A stretch of 64,000 nt of DNA from NCBI GenBank assembly GCA_948437895.1, contig CAOJKK010000001.1, positions 27,163-91,162 of the forward strand, written 5' to 3'. Positions within the stretch are counted from its first letter, which is position 1; the number at the start of each line of letters is the position of its first letter. Source of the stretch: an uncultured Clostridium sp. GTDB taxonomy: Bacteria; Bacillota; Clostridia; TANB77; CAG-508. The notes beneath the pieces are model-generated. The model searched no databases. It worked only from the letters and a program-made list of their open reading frames with translations, and had not been told where the DNA came from. A program made the position numbers and the translations under genes. This document shows positions 10,805-12,909 of this stretch, piece after piece.

Positions 10805-11158
10805 TTATTTAATAGTAGATGCCCATGAGTAAATCATGTCTGCTAAGTTTGTTGCTGCAAATATTAATATTGCACCAATGAAATATGGGAATAATGTTTT
10901 TTTGTATTCTGCTCTTTCTTCTGCACTTCCCATCATGTATTTTATACCTAATACTATTAACATTGCTACTGCAACTATTGTTCCTACTACTCTTATAATA
11001 CCTAATATTCTAGATCCTACGTTTTGTACTGATCCTGTGTCAGCTGTATTTATAGTAACACTATTAGGTCTGTACTCTGTAGCAAATACAGATGTTGATA
11101 CTAATACTATAGCAAGCACCATTAGCACTATAGAAACTACTTTTATACTCTTTTTCAT
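10805..11158 (-). CDS. VirB2/TrbC-like pilin candidate, paralog 5
   Basis: Signal peptide MKKSIKVVSIVLMVLAIVLVSTSVFA, short variable region, conserved C-terminal two-helix hairpin VVGTIVAVAMLIVLGIKYMMGSAEERAEYKKTLFPYFIGAILIFAA shared by all five paralogs. Confidence 0.55.
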   Translation of the reverse strand: MKKSIKVVSIVLMVLAIVLVSTSVFATEYRPNSVTINTADTGSVQNVGSRILGIIRVVGTIVAVAMLIVLGIKYMMGSAEERAEYKKTLFPYFIGAILIFAATNLADMIYSWASTIK

Positions 11159-11229
11159 GTTTTTCCCTCCTTATATTATTTTATTATATCATAATTCCTT
11201 GATTTCTTCAAGAAAACTTTAAAAACTAA

Positions 11230-11598
11230 TTATAACTTACTTGCCCAAGTGTAAATTATCTGGGCTATATTTGCCGCTGCAAATATTAATACTGCACCAA
11301 TGAAATATGGGAATAATGTTTTTTTGTATTCTGCTCTTTCTTCTGCGCTTCCCATCATGTACTTGATCCCTAATACTATTAGCATTCCTACTGCAACTAT
11401 TGTTCCTACTACTCTTATTAGTCCTACTATTTTTCCTCCTACGCTTTTCACATTATCTATTCCATCTCCAGAATCTTTTATGTATCCGCTTTCTTTAAAT
11501 TGCTTAGGTGTATAATCTCCAAAACTTATTGTTGGTACTACTAGTAATGCTATAAATACAACTATTAAAGCTGTTGTCATTATCTTTTTCAATTTCAT
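11230..11598 (-). CDS. VirB2/TrbC-like pilin candidate, paralog 4
   Basis: Signal peptide, variable domain, C-terminal domain almost identical to paralog 5. Confidence 0.55.
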   Translation of the reverse strand: MKLKKIMTTALIVVFIALLVVPTISFGDYTPKQFKESGYIKDSGDGIDNVKSVGGKIVGLIRVVGTIVAVGMLIVLGIKYMMGSAEERAEYKKTLFPYFIGAVLIFAAANIAQIIYTWASKL

Positions 11599-11613
11599 AG
11601 CTCCTACTCCTTT

Positions 11614-11973
11614 CTATATTTCTTTTGCCCAATTATATATAACTTGTGTAATATTTGAAAATCCAAATATTAATATAGAACCTATAATATATGGAAGCAT
11701 TGATTTTTTGTATTCTGCCTTCTGATCTGCACTTCCCATCATATACTTAATACCTAATATTATTAGCATTCCTACTGCCAGCATTGTTCCAATCACTTGT
11801 ATTATGCCTACTATTCTTCCGCCTTTTTCTTTTACTGTATTTGCTCCATTCCCATTTGTAGTTATTGATTTATCAAATGTATCAATTAATCCACTTGCCA
11901 ACACAGTATTTGATATTACAAATAATATTAATATTACATTTATTAAAATAATTAATATCTTTTTACGTTCCAT
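11614..11973 (-). CDS. VirB2/TrbC-like pilin candidate, paralog 3
   Basis: Same architecture; conserved motif VIGTMLAVGMLIILGIKYMMGSADQKAEYKKSMLPYIIGSILIFG. Confidence 0.55.
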   Translation of the reverse strand: MERKKILIILINVILILFVISNTVLASGLIDTFDKSITTNGNGANTVKEKGGRIVGIIQVIGTMLAVGMLIILGIKYMMGSADQKAEYKKSMLPYIIGSILIFGFSNITQVIYNWAKEI

Positions 11974-11985
11974 ATTTTCTCCTTA

Positions 11986-12456
11986 TTATATTGACTTTGG
12001 TGGGGTAGGTGTTGTTTGTTCGGTTGGAGGAGTTAACGTTTGACCTCCTATTGAAGACTCTGCATCGTTCCCAATATTTACTGCAATTTTCCATATTGTA
12101 AAAGCGCCAAAAACTACAATGCAACCTACGATAAATGGTAAAATAGCTTCTTTTACTTTTGCTTTTTCATCTGCACTTGCTGCCATAAATTGTATACCAA
12201 GTACCATTGCCACTATTATAGCTACCATTATTGCTATCCCAAGTAATGTATTATATACAAAGTTTGATCCTTTTTGTAATTCAGTTACATTTATTGTAGT
12301 TTCTATAGAATTTCCTTTGCCTAGAAAATCTTTCCCAGATGAAAATACATCTCCTAATGCATGTGATACTGGCAAACAAAATGTATTTGATAATATAACT
12401 ATAAATATAATACATATTAATGACTTCATAAATATACTTTTGCTCATCTGTATCAC
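11986..12456 (-). CDS. VirB2/TrbC-like pilin candidate, paralog 2 (with Pro/Thr-rich C-terminal extension)
   Basis: Same architecture, more divergent (LGIQFMAASADEKAKVKEAILPFIVGCIVVFGA) plus unique tail TLTPPTEQTTPTPPKSI; start may be an internal Met (MKSLICIIF...). Confidence 0.5.
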   Translation of the reverse strand: MIQMSKSIFMKSLICIIFIVILSNTFCLPVSHALGDVFSSGKDFLGKGNSIETTINVTELQKGSNFVYNTLLGIAIMVAIIVAMVLGIQFMAASADEKAKVKEAILPFIVGCIVVFGAFTIWKIAVNIGNDAESSIGGQTLTPPTEQTTPTPPKSI

Positions 12457-12468
12457 CCCTTATCTATT

Positions 12469-12909
12469 TTAACTAAACATATTATAAGCTAACTTAACTA
12501 TATTTGATGCTCCGAATAATAATACTGCTCCTATAAAGTATGGTATCATTCTCTCCCTATATTCTGCTTTCTCATCTGCACTTGCCATTACATACTTGAT
12601 TCCGATAATTATCATTGCACCTGCTGATACTATTGTACCTACTATTTGTATAACTCCTGCTATACTTCCTCCAAATCTATACATATCTTTTACATCTGTA
12701 GAATTTGGACCAGATGATTCATAGTCATTTGGATTAATTTGCGAAGAAGTTCCTTTAGAAAAAGCTCCTTTAGAAGAACTGCCTCCAGATATTGCTCCAC
12801 TTGCTGCTCCCTCAATAGCACTCTTTGCTGCTGACGCATTAACTGTAAGAGGAAATATTATCATAATTATCATTAATAATGTTATTACTATATACTTAGT
12901 TTTTTTCAT
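12469..12909 (-). CDS. VirB2/TrbC-like pilin candidate, paralog 1 (Ser/Gly-rich variable domain)
   Basis: Signal peptide, long S/G-rich variable region, conserved C-terminal hairpin IVGTIVSAGAMIIIGIKYVMASADEKAEYRERMIPYFIGAVLLFGASN; GGAGGGG RBS. Confidence 0.55.
   Translation of the reverse strand: MKKTKYIVITLLMIIMIIFPLTVNASAAKSAIEGAASGAISGGSSSKGAFSKGTSSQINPNDYESSGPNSTDVKDMYRFGGSIAGVIQIVGTIVSAGAMIIIGIKYVMASADEKAEYRERMIPYFIGAVLLFGASNIVKLAYNMFS

What the first reader, a model, noticed from the sequence alone, without database searches (positions are those of the whole stretch)
10805..12909. Five tandem VirB2/TrbC-like pilin paralogs with hypervariable N-terminal domains, expressed as their own operon
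Five consecutive small minus-strand genes encode proteins with a signal peptide, a variable 20-60 aa middle region and a highly conserved C-terminal hairpin of two hydrophobic helices separated by a charged loop. The conserved part reads G-IVGxIxVVGTIVAVGMLIVLGIKYMMGSAEERAEYKKTLFPYFIGAxLIF. That topology is the one seen in T4SS VirB2/TrbC/TraA pilins.

- **Tandem repetition.** Gram-positive (MPF-FATA) conjugation systems such as ICEBs1, Tn916 and pCW3 have no known pilin, and systems that do have one normally carry a single copy. Five diversified copies with a conserved membrane core point to antigenic, receptor or phase variation of a surface filament.
- **Variable exposed domains.** These range from S/G-rich (paralog 1) to a Pro/Thr-rich tail (paralog 2). 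Paralogs 4 and 5 share a near-identical C-terminal domain at the DNA level, which indicates recent duplication or gene conversion.
- **Independent expression.** The operon has its own consensus sigma-A promoter (TTGAAA-17-TGTTATAAT) and an intrinsic terminator. This suggests constitutive expression that is independent of the adjacent T4SS genes.
Basis: partly seen in the sequence, partly recalled or inferred. Interest (0 to 1): 0.88.

Follow-up and report, generated by a model that had tools for sequence, protein, structure and literature searches.

The report
Five-gene VirB2 pilin array, chromosomal T4SS
Five neighbouring small genes encode VirB2/TrbC-type secretion-system pilins that belong to a non-mobile, chromosomally inherited type IV secretion machine shared by hundreds of uncultured gut Clostridia, a combination so far described only for Patescibacteria.

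Summary
Five tandem minus-strand genes (10805-12909) each encode a signal peptide, a variable segment and a conserved two-helix hairpin. Four of the five pass Pfam's curated cut-offs for TrbC/VirB2 or T4SS_pilin; P2 falls just short.

They sit directly upstream of genes for PrgI/VirB3-like, TraC-N-like, VirB4, VirB6-like, NTF2-fold (VirB8-like) and cell-wall hydrolase proteins.

New here: the locus is not an ICE.
- VirB4 relatives (79-95% identical in the best 80) occur at 438 places in species-representative genomes. All of the best 80 come from uncultured gut Clostridia or Bacillota.
- The loci lie in two conserved housekeeping contexts, one of them next to mnmG-rsmG-soj-spo0J.
- No relaxase, coupling protein or integrase lies inside the cluster.
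- Synonymous divergence matches that of the flanking genes.

Arrays of 2-6 pilins (usually 3) are the rule. The last gene is a conserved P5-type pilin followed by a conserved terminator. The other copies are faster-evolving accessory types.

I found gene conversion (P5 into P4) and one strain-level allele swap (P2/P3) instead.

Pilin arrays in monoderm T4SSs are already published for Patescibacteria. A 2025 preprint reports VirB2-like proteins in Gram-positive plasmids. This is a new variant, not a new kind.

The parts
12941..12969 (-). Promoter-like site of the pilin operon (TTGAAA, 17 nt, TATAAT, with TG extension)
   Evidence: 11 of 12 consensus positions, the best match in 10500-13400. It lies about 25 nt upstream of the P1 Shine-Dalgarno/ATG. 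Pattern match only.
12469..12909 (-). P1, pilin paralog (146 aa) with an S/G-rich insert in the exposed N-terminal segment
   Evidence: Pfam TrbC 29.5 bits (cut-off 27.9). The ortholog in L005 is 72% identical and lacks the insert (117 aa).
11986..12447 (-). P2, divergent pilin paralog (153 aa) with a Pro/Thr-rich C-terminal tail; 'P2-type' accessory pilin
   Evidence: T4SS_pilin 26.0 bits (cut-off 26.6), TrbC 23.3 bits. Gene callers give 153 aa. P2-type relatives carry 100-280 aa extensions. The tail is replaced by a Cys-rich tail in a conspecific contig.
11614..11973 (-). P3, pilin paralog (119 aa)
   Evidence: T4SS_pilin 32.4 bits (cut-off 26.6). 24 SNPs against conspecific contig L001, while the next 1.6 kb are identical.
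11230..11598 (-). P4, pilin paralog (122 aa); its core was converted by P5
   Evidence: TrbC 39.8 and T4SS_pilin 39.8 bits. The 144-nt core is 94.4% identical to P5 but 81.9% to its positional ortholog Q4.
11183..11211 (-). Internal promoter-like site in front of P5 (TTGAAG, 17 nt, TATAAT, with TG)
   Evidence: 10 of 12. The gap before the last pilin is larger than other intra-array gaps across species (median 86 vs 17 nt). Pattern match only; no control for the motif count.
10805..11158 (-). P5, the conserved 'last-position' pilin (117 aa); candidate major subunit
   Evidence: TrbC 44.4 bits over 98/98 profile positions; T4SS_pilin 40.6. The last gene of the array is P5-type in 57 of 62 arrays. 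87% identical to the L005 ortholog, dN/dS 0.13. AF2 model pLDDT 80: signal helix plus hairpin 42-76/79-115.
10757..10786 (-). Intrinsic-terminator-like hairpin plus T-run closing the pilin operon
   Evidence: An equivalent structure follows the last pilin in 67 of 70 species, against 0-4 of 70 in shuffles.
10267..10644 (-). PrgI/VirB3-like small membrane protein (probable start at 10608, 113 aa)
   Evidence: PrgI 21.9 bits, below the cut-off of 27. The ortholog in L012 scores 32.0 bits, above it. Present in 86 related loci.
9050..10267 (-). 405-aa membrane-anchored protein resembling the N-terminal part of VirB4/TraC (TrsD-like position)
   Evidence: Precomputed Pfam PF26593 TraC-like on orthologs. 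No Pfam hit for the window copy itself at E <= 0.001. Always sits between PrgI and VirB4.
7132..9105 (-). VirB4-family ATPase (657 aa)
   Evidence: P-loop_TraG, AAA_10, DUF87. CD1110-family VirB4 1e-60 and Mycoplasma ICE VirB4 1e-56, both below their equivalog cut-offs. Median 80% identity across the fetched loci; dN/dS 0.04.
4750..7104 (-). VirB6-like polytopic membrane protein (784 aa) with an embedded pilin-like module at aa 233-316
   Evidence: Position and topology. Weak NCBIfam hits to MMCAP2_0566 and pLS20_p028 conjugation membrane proteins. The window-only pilin profile hits it at E=4.8e-5; BLASTP P5 vs aa 255-301 gives E=0.003. VirB6 homology itself is not shown.
3820..4728 (-). Bitopic protein (302 aa): TM helix, NTF2-like domain, beta-sandwich; VirB8/TcpC-like by fold
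2094..3794 (-). N-terminal half of the large cell-wall hydrolase (566 aa; TM anchor); a separate gene in this sub-lineage
   Evidence: One 900-1700 aa gene in most relatives, but split as 563+519 aa in the closest relative L092. Weak hit to the CD1108 family.
518..2128 (-). C-terminal half of the hydrolase: Phage_lysozyme2 domain plus C-terminal domain (VirB1-like role)
   Evidence: PF18013, 1.2e-34. The real start is probably near 2077, by analogy with L092.
1..504 (-). Start of the next conserved cluster gene (d427-type; TM anchor); runs off the window
   Evidence: The position corresponds to the 406-472 aa gene that follows the hydrolase in most loci and in the closest relative L092. The truncated window copy gave no BLAST match. 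The L012 copy has a DUF4864 hit at 26.8 bits, just below the 27.1 cut-off.

Best explanation
**What it is.** The five genes encode VirB2/TrbC-family pilin subunits. They serve a chromosomally fixed, vertically inherited type IV secretion-like machine that carries no DNA-processing or mobility genes in the cluster.

**Proposed mechanism**
1. Shown: the pilins are transcribed as their own unit, from a strong promoter to a conserved terminator. This unit is separate from the downstream machinery operon (PrgI/VirB3, TraC-N-like, VirB4, VirB6-like, NTF2-fold protein, hydrolase).
2. Inferred from sequence rules and from what is known of VirB2 pilins:
   - Each precursor is exported by Sec and cleaved by signal peptidase I.
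   - It then rests in the membrane as an N-out/C-out helical hairpin with its short charged loop in the cytoplasm.
3. Inferred by analogy:
   - VirB4 extracts the hairpins and stacks them on the VirB6-like platform, which itself carries a pilin-like hairpin.
   - The result is a tube through the cell wall, which the hydrolase has opened.
   - The invariant loop lines the lumen. The variable N-terminal segments, and P2's tail, are on the outside.
4. Inferred from comparative data:
   - P5 is the major subunit. It is the conserved last gene, with its own promoter-like site and a terminator.
   - P1-P4 are accessory or minor subunits, expanded from an ancestral set of about three.
   - These accessory copies diversify between species and strains by indels, gene conversion and recombination.

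**What the machine moves.** This is unknown. It is probably not used to transfer a mobile element. A contact-dependent exchange or uptake role like that proposed for the Patescibacteria T4SS is the closest analogy.
For: **Family membership**
- Pfam TrbC and/or T4SS_pilin above the gathering score for P1, P3, P4 and P5; P2 is 0.6 bit short.
- Homologs are named 'TrbC/VirB2 family protein' by NCBI.
- Signal helix plus two-helix hairpin in the AF2 model.

**T4SS context**
-.
- NTF2-fold bitopic protein.

**Not mobile**
- 438 matching stretches in species-representative genomes. The best 80 are 79-95% identical in VirB4.
- One operon order throughout.
- Two conserved housekeeping contexts: rpoBC-prs-rpsU-yqeY-M16-M16-lgt-spo0E, or mnmG-rsmG-soj-spo0J.
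- Downstream neighbours are a D-Ala-D-Ala carboxypeptidase-like gene or an RNase H gene.
- dS of the T4SS genes (0.66-1.05) is within the range of the flanking housekeeping genes (0.42-1.3).

**Subunit differentiation**
- Position-by-position orthology with L005; dN/dS 0.13 for P5 and 0.18-0.44 for P1-P4.
- The last gene is P5-type in 57 of 62 arrays.
- In 71 last-position pilins the loop is 89% identical pairwise, the helices about 50% and the N-terminal segment 19%.

**Operon structure**
-.

**Pilin-like module in the VirB6-like protein**
-.

**Published parallels**
- Patescibacteria T4SS with VirB2 arrays, PrgI, TrsD, VirB4, VirB6 and lysozyme, mostly without relaxase and often near oriC (PMC12102498).
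- VirB2-like PrgF assembling on VirB6 in pCF10 (10.64898/2025.12.18.695078).
Against: - No filament has been seen and nothing here is experimental.
- Fold searches with the pilin model were uninformative. A helical hairpin matches hundreds of unrelated structures. A profile search of PDB sequences found nothing.
- P2 does not reach either Pfam cut-off.
- A coupling protein or relaxase could be encoded elsewhere in the genome. Only about 10 kb on each side of VirB4 in relatives and 64 kb in the window were inspected.
- Calling P5 the 'major' pilin rests on conservation and position only.
- Fused proteins with 2-5 hairpins exist in relatives. This is also compatible with a membrane-embedded bundle rather than a long filament.
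- Homology of the 784-aa protein to VirB6 was not demonstrated.
Confidence: 0.7

Rival explanations
1. **Surface-variation repertoire.** The five copies are alternative versions of one surface filament subunit. They are kept to vary antigenicity or receptor specificity, through differential expression, phase variation or recombination among copies, as proposed for Bartonella Trw trwL and Anaplasma virB2 paralogs.
For: - The exposed N-terminal segment is the least conserved part (19% pairwise identity).
- It varies by indels (P1 146 aa vs 117 aa in L005).
- Gene conversion between P5 and P4.
- One conspecific contig has a swapped P2 tail and 24 SNPs confined to P3, next to 1.6 kb of identity.
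- Copy number varies from 2 to 6.
- An internal promoter-like site lies before P5.
Against: - All five are orthologous position by position in a relative separated by dS of about 0.8-1.0. All are under purifying selection (dN/dS 0.13-0.44).
- One shared promoter and close spacing imply co-expression.
- There are no invertible repeats, slippage tracts or silent cassettes.
- P2-type and P5-type are ancient, distinct subfamilies found in most species.
- The strain-level evidence is a single contig.
Confidence: 0.12
2. **Membrane-embedded channel subunits.** The hairpins are VirB2 homologs that do not polymerise into a pilus. They assemble, together with the hairpin of the VirB6-like protein, into a hetero-oligomeric bundle or pore in the membrane. 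Each paralog holds a fixed place in it.
For: - Fused proteins carry 2-5 hairpins behind a single signal peptide.
- The VirB6-like protein has a pilin-like module.
- The cytoplasmic loop is the most conserved part.
- In Gram-negative systems VirB2 is needed for transfer even without pili (PMC12857230).
- No pilus has ever been visualised on a Gram-positive T4SS.
Against: - An N-out/C-out hairpin topology allows tandem fusion in a filament too, because the linkers would run on the outer surface.
- A strong dedicated promoter with a terminator that separates subunit genes from machinery genes is typical of abundant polymer subunits.
- Large exposed extensions on P2-type copies suggest reach beyond the membrane.
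Confidence: 0.13
3. **Ordinary conjugative element.** The array belongs to an ICE or an integrated plasmid. Its relaxase, coupling protein and integrase lie outside the inspected stretch, and the pilins serve DNA transfer.
For: - The VirB4 is most similar to conjugation ATPases: CD1110 family and Mycoplasma ICE.
- It is 42-43% identical to VirB4 of Clostridium beijerinckii and C. botulinum plasmids.
- Those plasmids have a same-topology 136-aa protein upstream of PrgI.
- T4CP genes can lie far from virB4.
Against: - The chromosomal neighbours are the same on both sides in dozens of species, and dS matches the flanks.
- VirB4 is better conserved (median 80%) than the flanking M16 peptidases (57-63%) and YqeY (72%).
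- No integrase, relaxase, T4CP or repeats bound the cluster.
- No GC anomaly.
- P5 has no match in 72,556 plasmids.
Confidence: 0.04
4. **Unrelated small membrane proteins.** The five are holin-like proteins, bacteriocin or immunity proteins that only mimic pilin topology.
For: Weak sub-threshold hits of P1 to circular bacteriocin IId (E=0.004) and DUF3852.
Against: - Pilin families are the top hits for all five, above the cut-off for four.
- Linkage to PrgI and VirB4 is constant across about 80 species.
- No bacteriocin processing or export genes are present.
Confidence: 0.01

Closest known systems
Patescibacteria (CPR) T4SS with VirB2-like pilin arrays (Southlakia epibionticum ML1, Nanosynbacter TM7x; PMC12102498, PMC12857230)
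   Same: - Monoderm host.
- Tandem arrays of sequence-divergent VirB2-like genes: 2-11 there, 2-6 here.
- Next to PrgI/VirB3, a protein resembling the VirB4 N-terminus (TrsD there, TraC-like here), VirB4, VirB6 and lysozyme/peptidase genes.
- No relaxase in the cluster and the T4CP not adjacent.
- Chromosomal and lineage-wide.
- Origin-proximal in part of the lineage: dnaA there, mnmG-rsmG-soj-spo0J here.
   Different: - The host is a spore-former-type Clostridia lineage (Spo0E-like gene adjacent), not CPR.
- Whether this VirB4 is sister to the Patescibacteria clade was not tested.
- Essentiality and lifestyle are unknown here.
- An NTF2-fold VirB8-like protein and a large bipartite hydrolase are constant here but rare in CPR.
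- Paralogs here are more alike (up to 57%, with a converted core).
PrgF_B2 of pCF10 and VirB2-like proteins of Gram-positive conjugative plasmids (bioRxiv 10.64898/2025.12.18.695078)
   Same: - Small two-helix proteins with a short charged loop.
- Encoded near the VirB6-like gene of a Gram-positive T4SS.
- Proposed to polymerise on a VirB6 pentamer with the loop lining the lumen.
   Different: - Those are single functional copies on mobile plasmids with relaxase and T4CP.
- Those have 'almost non-existing' sequence homology to VirB2. The proteins here match Pfam TrbC/VirB2 directly.
- The proteins here have cleavable signal peptides, come in arrays, and sit on a non-mobile chromosomal locus.
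Bartonella Trw (trwL1-n) and Anaplasma/Ehrlichia virB2 paralog arrays
   Same: - Tandem, sequence-variable VirB2 copies in a T4SS lacking a coupling protein (Trw).
- Amplification of surface-exposed components. Some relatives here also have 2-4 tandem VirB6-like genes.
   Different: - Those are diderm intracellular pathogens, where the variants are interpreted as host-range or antigenic variants.
- Here the copies are ancient, differentiated and under purifying selection.
- There is no VirB5 homolog here.
Archaeal Ced/Ted and Helicobacter ComB DNA-import systems
   Same: - T4SS-derived and chromosomal.
- No relaxase or T4CP.
- VirB2-like pilins with VirB4- and VirB6-like proteins.
   Different: - Only generic P-loop similarity to CedB/CedD (E about 1e-5).
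- No evidence for DNA uptake here.
Mycoplasma ICE pilin-like protein (NCBIfam NF045849, Mbov_0395/MMCAP2_0565) and MMCAP2_0566
   Same: - Best NCBIfam match of all five pilins (E 2e-4 to 6e-7).
- The neighbouring MMCAP2_0566 family weakly matches the pilin-like region of the VirB6-like protein.
- The VirB4 also matches the Mycoplasma ICE VirB4 family.
   Different: - All scores are below the curated cut-offs.
- Those are on mobile ICEs and are single-copy.
TANB77 'pilin-like' cluster (Nat Commun 2024, PMC11680825)
   Same: - Conserved pilus-type gene cluster in uncultured low-GC gut Clostridia.
- Several small pilin-like genes with their own promoters.
   Different: - That cluster is a Tad/type IVc pilus (CpaF/TadA, TadB/C). 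It is unrelated in sequence and machinery.
- Whether the present host belongs to TANB77 could not be checked.

Membership tests
VirB2/TrbC T4SS pilin (Pfam PF04956, PF18895) | Profile match at or above the curated gathering score | tested here: met
   P5: TrbC 44.4 (cut-off 27.9) and T4SS_pilin 40.6 (cut-off 26.6). P4: 39.8 and 39.8. P3: T4SS_pilin 32.4. P1: TrbC 29.5. P2 misses both (26.0 and 23.3), so its membership rests on paralogy.
VirB2/TrbC T4SS pilin (Pfam PF04956, PF18895) | Cleavable signal peptide followed by two hydrophobic helices joined by a short charged loop | tested here: met
   Sequence shows n/h/c regions with small residues at -3/-1 in all five. AF2 model: helix 2-24, then hairpin 42-76/79-115. 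No SignalP or TMHMM was available, so cleavage itself is inferred.
VirB2/TrbC T4SS pilin (Pfam PF04956, PF18895) | Encoded next to VirB3, VirB4 and VirB6 genes | tested here: met
VirB2/TrbC T4SS pilin (Pfam PF04956, PF18895) | Structural match to solved conjugative pilins | tested here: inconclusive
VirB2/TrbC T4SS pilin (Pfam PF04956, PF18895) | Polymerises into a pilus or conduit | not testable with these tools
   Needs multimer modelling with the VirB6-like protein, or experiments.
Conjugative element T4SS (MPF_FA / MPF_FATA ICE or plasmid) | VirB4-family ATPase | tested here: met
Conjugative element T4SS (MPF_FA / MPF_FATA ICE or plasmid) | Relaxase and type IV coupling protein associated with the locus | tested here: not met
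   None in the cluster or its immediate flanks, in the window or in about 80 related loci. The rest of the genomes was not searched.
Conjugative element T4SS (MPF_FA / MPF_FATA ICE or plasmid) | Mobility: integrase or att sites, variable insertion site, patchy distribution | tested here: not met
   Two conserved housekeeping contexts; dS equal to the flanks; no integrase. No compositional anomaly.
Patescibacteria-type T4SS | Array of divergent VirB2-like genes near virB4, with PrgI and a VirB4-N-terminal homolog | tested here: met
   compared with the description in PMC12102498. The TrsD profile itself was not run. The TraC-like assignment comes from precomputed Pfam hits.
Patescibacteria-type T4SS | VirB4 falls in the Patescibacteria clade nested in MPF_FATA | not tested
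   No reference VirB4 set was available. The NCBIfam best hits are the CD1110-family and Mycoplasma ICE VirB4.
Antigenic/host-range pilin arrays (Bartonella Trw, Anaplasma) | Paralogs under diversifying selection or differentially expressed | tested here: not met
   Whole-gene dN/dS is 0.13-0.44 between orthologs. One shared promoter. No switch elements. Site-level tests and expression were not possible. One strain-level allele swap was seen.

The most novel reading that the evidence does not exclude
A domesticated, relaxase-less T4SS that builds a heteromeric VirB2 pilus is a core, vertically inherited organelle of a whole order-level clade of uncultured, low-GC gut Clostridia. It is the Firmicutes counterpart, and possibly the evolutionary source or sister, of the essential pilin-array T4SS of Patescibacteria. 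This would imply that these gut bacteria depend on contact-dependent exchange or uptake with other cells. It would also mean that VirB2 pilins were ancestral to monoderm T4SSs rather than borrowed from diderms.
Probability: 0.3. Interest if true: 0.8.

Novelty: new variant of a known kind. Interest (0 to 1): 0.62.

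Why it matters
- **A textbook statement.** Reviews up to the end of 2025 state that Gram-positive T4SSs lack VirB2, with Patescibacteria as the single exception. The Patescibacteria study left open whether its pilins were borrowed from diderm systems, because none were known in MPF_FATA. Here VirB2 homologs recognisable by plain sequence profiles sit in a bona fide Bacillota T4SS with the same gene order. That makes the origin question testable by phylogeny.
- **An unexplained machine in gut bacteria.** The locus is non-mobile and its VirB4 is highly conserved (80% identity across species whose flanking M16 and YqeY proteins are about 60-70% identical). It is present in hundreds of uncultured gut species. 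This points to an important cell-surface machine of unknown substrate in a poorly understood part of the human and animal microbiome.
- **Material for pilus assembly studies.** The pilin-like hairpin inside the VirB6-like protein and the naturally fused poly-pilins could help test how VirB2 is nucleated on VirB6.

Tried and rejected
- **Plasmid search with P5.** tblastn of P5 against 72,556 plasmids gave no match. The nearest plasmid T4SS is in C. beijerinckii, with VirB4 43% identical. It has a same-topology 136-aa protein without any Pfam or profile hit. This is a lead only.
- **Exact look-up of the window's 302-aa protein.** Not on record. I walked downstream through homologs instead.
- **The TANB77 'conserved pilin' paper.** It looked like a prior description but concerns a Tad pilus. 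The GTDB placement of the host could not be verified.
- **A 'clean' small-pilin HMM built with hmmalign.** It was malformed, and I discarded its weaker result in favour of the window-only five-sequence profile. The iterated profile used included VirB6-like hits. Its E-values for those proteins are therefore circular and are not cited as evidence.
- **A roughly 490-aa 12-TM protein just upstream of some arrays.** It is absent from the window and present in only 9 loci, so it is not part of the system.
- **Contig-end mismatches in L003.** Treated as assembly error.
- **Rfam and tRNA scans of the window.** Empty.
- **Split hydrolase as a frameshift artefact.** Rejected, because the closest relative has the same two genes.

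Full report
**1. The observation**

Window 10805-12909 holds five consecutive minus-strand genes with strong ribosome-binding sites.
- P1: 12469-12909, 146 aa
- P2: 11986-12447, 153 aa
- P3: 11614-11973, 119 aa
- P4: 11230-11598, 122 aa
- P5: 10805-11158, 117 aa

Each product has the same layout:
- a K/R-rich N-terminus, a hydrophobic stretch and a small-residue -3/-1 site;
- a variable segment;
- two hydrophobic helices joined by a charged loop (GSAEERAEYKK in P4 and P5).

Pairwise identity runs from 22% (P2 vs P5) to 57% (P4 vs P5). The 226-nt 3' core shows up as a DNA direct-repeat family in P5, P4, P3 and P1, and a 24-nt core segment in all five.

**2. What the proteins are**

- Pfam places them in TrbC/VirB2 (PF04956) and T4SS_pilin (PF18895).
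  - P5: 44.4 and 40.6 bits
  - P4: 39.8 and 39.8 bits
  - P3: 32.4 bits (T4SS_pilin)
  - P1: 29.5 bits (TrbC)
  - All of these exceed the curated cut-offs of 27.9 and 26.6.
  - P2 stays just under (26.0 and 23.3).
- The best NCBIfam family for all five is the Mycoplasma ICE 'pilin-like conjugal transfer protein', below its cut-off.
- A homolog in GenBank is named 'TrbC/VirB2 family protein [Clostridia bacterium]'.
- An AlphaFold2 model of P5 (pLDDT 80) shows a signal helix followed by a helical hairpin, 42-76 and 79-115.
- Fold searches with so simple a fold were uninformative. The PDB holds no sequence relative.
- The family is large: 5581 clusters at 50% identity match the profile, 3175 of them at E <= 1e-10.

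**3. The surroundings**

Downstream on the same strand lie:

| Coordinates | Product | Evidence |
|---|---|---|
| 10267-10608 | PrgI/VirB3-like protein | |
| 9050-10267 | 405-aa membrane protein; orthologs carry the TraC-like (VirB4 N-terminal) Pfam family | |
| 7132-9105 | VirB4 ATPase | |
| 4750-7104 | 784-aa polytopic protein in the VirB6 position | |
| 3820-4728 | 302-aa bitopic protein | see below |
| 2094-3794 and 518-2128 | large cell-wall hydrolase, split into two genes | |
| 1-504 | start of a further conserved gene | |

Upstream lie a Spo0E-like gene, lgt, two M16 peptidases, yqeY, prs, rpoC and rpoB. Further on come nrdD, purF-like and ftsH. This is core chromosome, with no compositional break.

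**4. It is not a mobile element**

- A scan of one genome per GTDB species found 438 stretches encoding relatives of this VirB4. The best 80 are 79-95% identical. All 80 come from uncultured gut or digester Clostridia/Bacillota MAGs, for example Clostridium sp. CAG:452.
- In these loci and in metagenome relatives the operon order is constant:
  - pilins x2-6
  - PrgI
  - TraC-like
  - VirB4
  - (98 aa)
  - VirB6-like x1-4
  - p302
  - hydrolase
  - a 406-472 aa protein
  - a 360-540 aa acidic protein
- Two chromosomal contexts recur:
  - (A) prs-rpsU-yqeY-M16-M16-(lgt)-spo0E, as in the window;
  - (B) mnmG-rsmG-soj-spo0J-DUF4446, the origin-proximal gene set.
- Downstream neighbours are a D-Ala-D-Ala carboxypeptidase-like gene or an RNase H gene.
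- No relaxase, coupling protein or integrase lies in or beside the cluster.
- Between the window and relative L005, synonymous divergence of the T4SS genes (0.66-1.05) lies within that of the flanking housekeeping genes (0.42-1.3).
- VirB4 is exceptionally constrained. Its dN/dS is 0.04, and its median identity across species is 80%, against 57-63% for the M16 peptidases and 72% for YqeY.
- P5 has no relative in 72,556 plasmids.
- The nearest plasmid VirB4s are in C. beijerinckii and C. botulinum, at 42-43% identity. They accompany a single same-topology 136-aa protein without detectable sequence homology.

**5. Anatomy and evolution of the array**

*Copy number and paralog types*
- Among 56 species with a complete array, 45 have three pilin genes, 9 have four, one has two and one has six. 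The window's lineage has five, as do L005-L007.
- The last gene is P5-type in 57 of 62 arrays, with a narrow length range of 116-154 aa.
- The first or middle genes are often P2-type. These carry N- or C-terminal extensions up to 398 aa, and no known domain matches them.

*Selection*
- The window's five genes are orthologous position by position to those of L005 (72, 63, 63, 64 and 87% identity). All are under purifying selection (dN/dS 0.18, 0.27, 0.44, 0.28 and 0.13).
- Across 71 last-position pilins, mean pairwise identity by region is as follows:

| Region | Mean pairwise identity |
|---|---|
| Inter-helix loop | 89% |
| The two helices | 50-53% |
| Signal peptide | 37% |
| C-terminal tail | 20% |
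| N-terminal exposed segment | 19% |

- G71, K73 and G95 are invariant.

*Gene conversion*
- In a 144-nt core, P4 is 94.4% identical to P5 (third positions 90%). It is only 81.9% identical to its positional ortholog Q4, and 88.9% to Q5.
- P5 therefore converted the P4 core after the two lineages split. This was not a recent duplication.

*Strain-level variation*
- Conspecific metagenome contig L001 is 100% identical to the window from 10055 to 11678 (P4, P5, PrgI).
- It carries 24 SNPs confined to P3.
- Its P2 tail is unrelated and Cys-rich.
- This is a recombinational allele swap.

*No switching elements*
- No invertible repeats or slippage tracts are present.

**6. Expression signals**

- The best sigma-A-type match of the region (TTGAAA-17-TATAAT with TG, 12969-12941) precedes P1. 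It follows the terminator of the Spo0E-like gene (13113-13077).
- A second match (11211-11183) precedes P5.
- A hairpin plus T-run (10786-10757) follows P5.
- A comparable terminator follows the last pilin in 67 of 70 species, against 0-4 of 70 in shuffled intergenic sequences.
- The gap before the last pilin is larger than the other gaps (median 86 vs 17 nt).

The pilins therefore form a transcription unit of their own. P5 may be boosted further. This is the arrangement expected for abundant polymer subunits. Constitutive expression remains an assumption.

**7. Mechanism proposed**

| Status | Step |
|---|---|
| Shown | Family membership, T4SS linkage, vertical inheritance, operon layout, differential conservation. 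|
| Inferred from established knowledge of VirB2 pilins (hairpin with cytoplasmic loop, extraction by VirB4, assembly on a VirB6 pentamer, loop lining the lumen and termini outside; summarised) | Sec export and cleavage; an N-out/C-out hairpin in the membrane; VirB4-driven assembly on the VirB6-like platform into a wall-spanning tube. The invariant loop faces inside; the variable N-terminal segments and P2 extensions face outside. |
| Inferred from comparative data | P5 is the major subunit. The others are accessory subunits. |

The substrate is unknown. The absence of DNA-processing genes and the fixed chromosomal position argue against element transfer.

**8. Comparison with what is known**

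- Guglielmini et al. 2014 found no pilin homologs in monoderm T4SS classes.
- A December 2025 review still lists Patescibacteria as the single Gram-positive-type exception.
- The Patescibacteria system has these features:
  - VirB2 arrays of 2-11 genes;
  - PrgI, TrsD, VirB4 and VirB6;
  - lysozyme/peptidase genes;
  - usually no relaxase;
  - often a position near the origin.
- That is essentially the architecture found here.
- A December 2025 preprint shows that PrgF of pCF10 is a VirB2-like protein essential for conjugation. It predicts such proteins in most Gram-positive conjugative plasmids.
- Tandem VirB2 paralogs are also known from Bartonella Trw and Anaplasma.
- The TANB77 'pilin' cluster is an unrelated Tad pilus.
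- No paper in the searched library describes a pilin-array T4SS in Clostridia.

**9. Verdict**

- The pilin identity is supported.
- The 'antigenic or phase variation of an ICE pilus' reading is not supported.
- The finding is a new variant of a known kind. It is a Bacillota counterpart of the Patescibacteria pilin-array T4SS: chromosomal, lineage-wide, and with sequence-detectable VirB2 homology.
- Interest is moderate to high.
- The main gaps are the missing whole-genome check for T4CP and relaxase, the untested VirB4 phylogeny, and the complete lack of experimental data.

Noticed in passing
window 4750-7104 (-), residues 233-316 of the 784-aa protein: The VirB6-position protein contains a pilin-like module: variable segment, hairpin and a ...EKAKYKK... 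loop. A profile built only from the five window pilins hits it at E=4.8e-5. The same profile hits 84 of 293 large ORFs in related loci; every top-scoring hit checked is the gene just downstream of VirB4. It could be the nucleating base layer for pilin assembly.
   Followed up: partly
P0247, P0248, P0250, P0253; L067:1056-1679, L066:3138-3920, L029:426-1154: Natural fusions of 2-5 pilin hairpins behind a single signal peptide, with short linkers in place of the internal signal peptides. Three of them sit inside arrays upstream of PrgI-VirB4. This is consistent with an N-out/C-out topology and raises the question of filament versus bundle.
   Followed up: partly
L001 versus window 10055-12195: A conspecific metagenome contig is identical over P4-P5-PrgI (about 1.6 kb). 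It has 24 SNPs confined to P3 and an unrelated Cys-rich (CxxC...CxxC) tail on P2 instead of the Pro/Thr-rich tail. This is a recombination mosaic with its breakpoint in the conserved core of P3.
   Followed up: partly
window 518-3794 (-); L092:3633-6900: The large T4SS hydrolase is a single 900-1700 aa gene in most relatives. It is split into two genes in the window (566 aa and about 519-536 aa) and in the closest relative (563 and 519 aa). The split is therefore real, not a sequencing frameshift.
   Followed up: yes
L077:195-5622 and about 20 other loci (context B): In a second clade the same T4SS sits immediately after mnmG-rsmG-soj-spo0J-DUF4446, the origin-proximal gene set. This mirrors the origin-proximal position reported for Patescibacteria T4SS genes.
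   Followed up: partly
L014, L016, L017, L055-L057, L067, L081: Two to four tandem copies of the VirB6-like gene in some species. This recalls the VirB6 paralog expansions of Rickettsiales.
   Followed up: no
between the spo0E-like gene and the first pilin in L020:4850-6769, L026:4425-5654, L014:5252-6241: Variable insertions at this junction: an AAA-ATPase plus a small partner, a DUF4143-type ATPase and a Fic-like protein. They look like defence or toxin modules, which suggests a local insertion hot spot.
   Followed up: no
L072:4135-5598, L040:4455-5939 and 7 other loci: A roughly 490-aa 12-TM protein with a C-terminal soluble domain (glycosyltransferase-like by appearance) lies just upstream of some arrays. 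It is absent from the window.
   Followed up: partly
L091 (C. beijerinckii plasmid NZ_CP107023.1) 9978-10388: In the nearest plasmid T4SS (VirB4 43% identical), a single 136-aa protein occupies the pilin position upstream of PrgI. It has a signal peptide, a variable segment and two hydrophobic helices, but no Pfam or profile match.
   Followed up: partly
window 10769-10783 and 11191-11205: A 15-nt piece of the P5 terminator (ATAATTCCTTGCTTT) recurs 422 nt upstream, after P4 (93%), inside the internal promoter-like site. The P4/P5 duplication seems to have included the 3' flank, which was later remodelled.
   Followed up: no
L036 and L064: Two separate loci of this T4SS come from one MAG (Lapin-018__bin83). 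This is either two copies per genome or mixed strains in the bin.
   Followed up: no
window 1-64000: No tRNA genes and no Rfam family at gathering score in the whole 64-kb window.
   Followed up: yes
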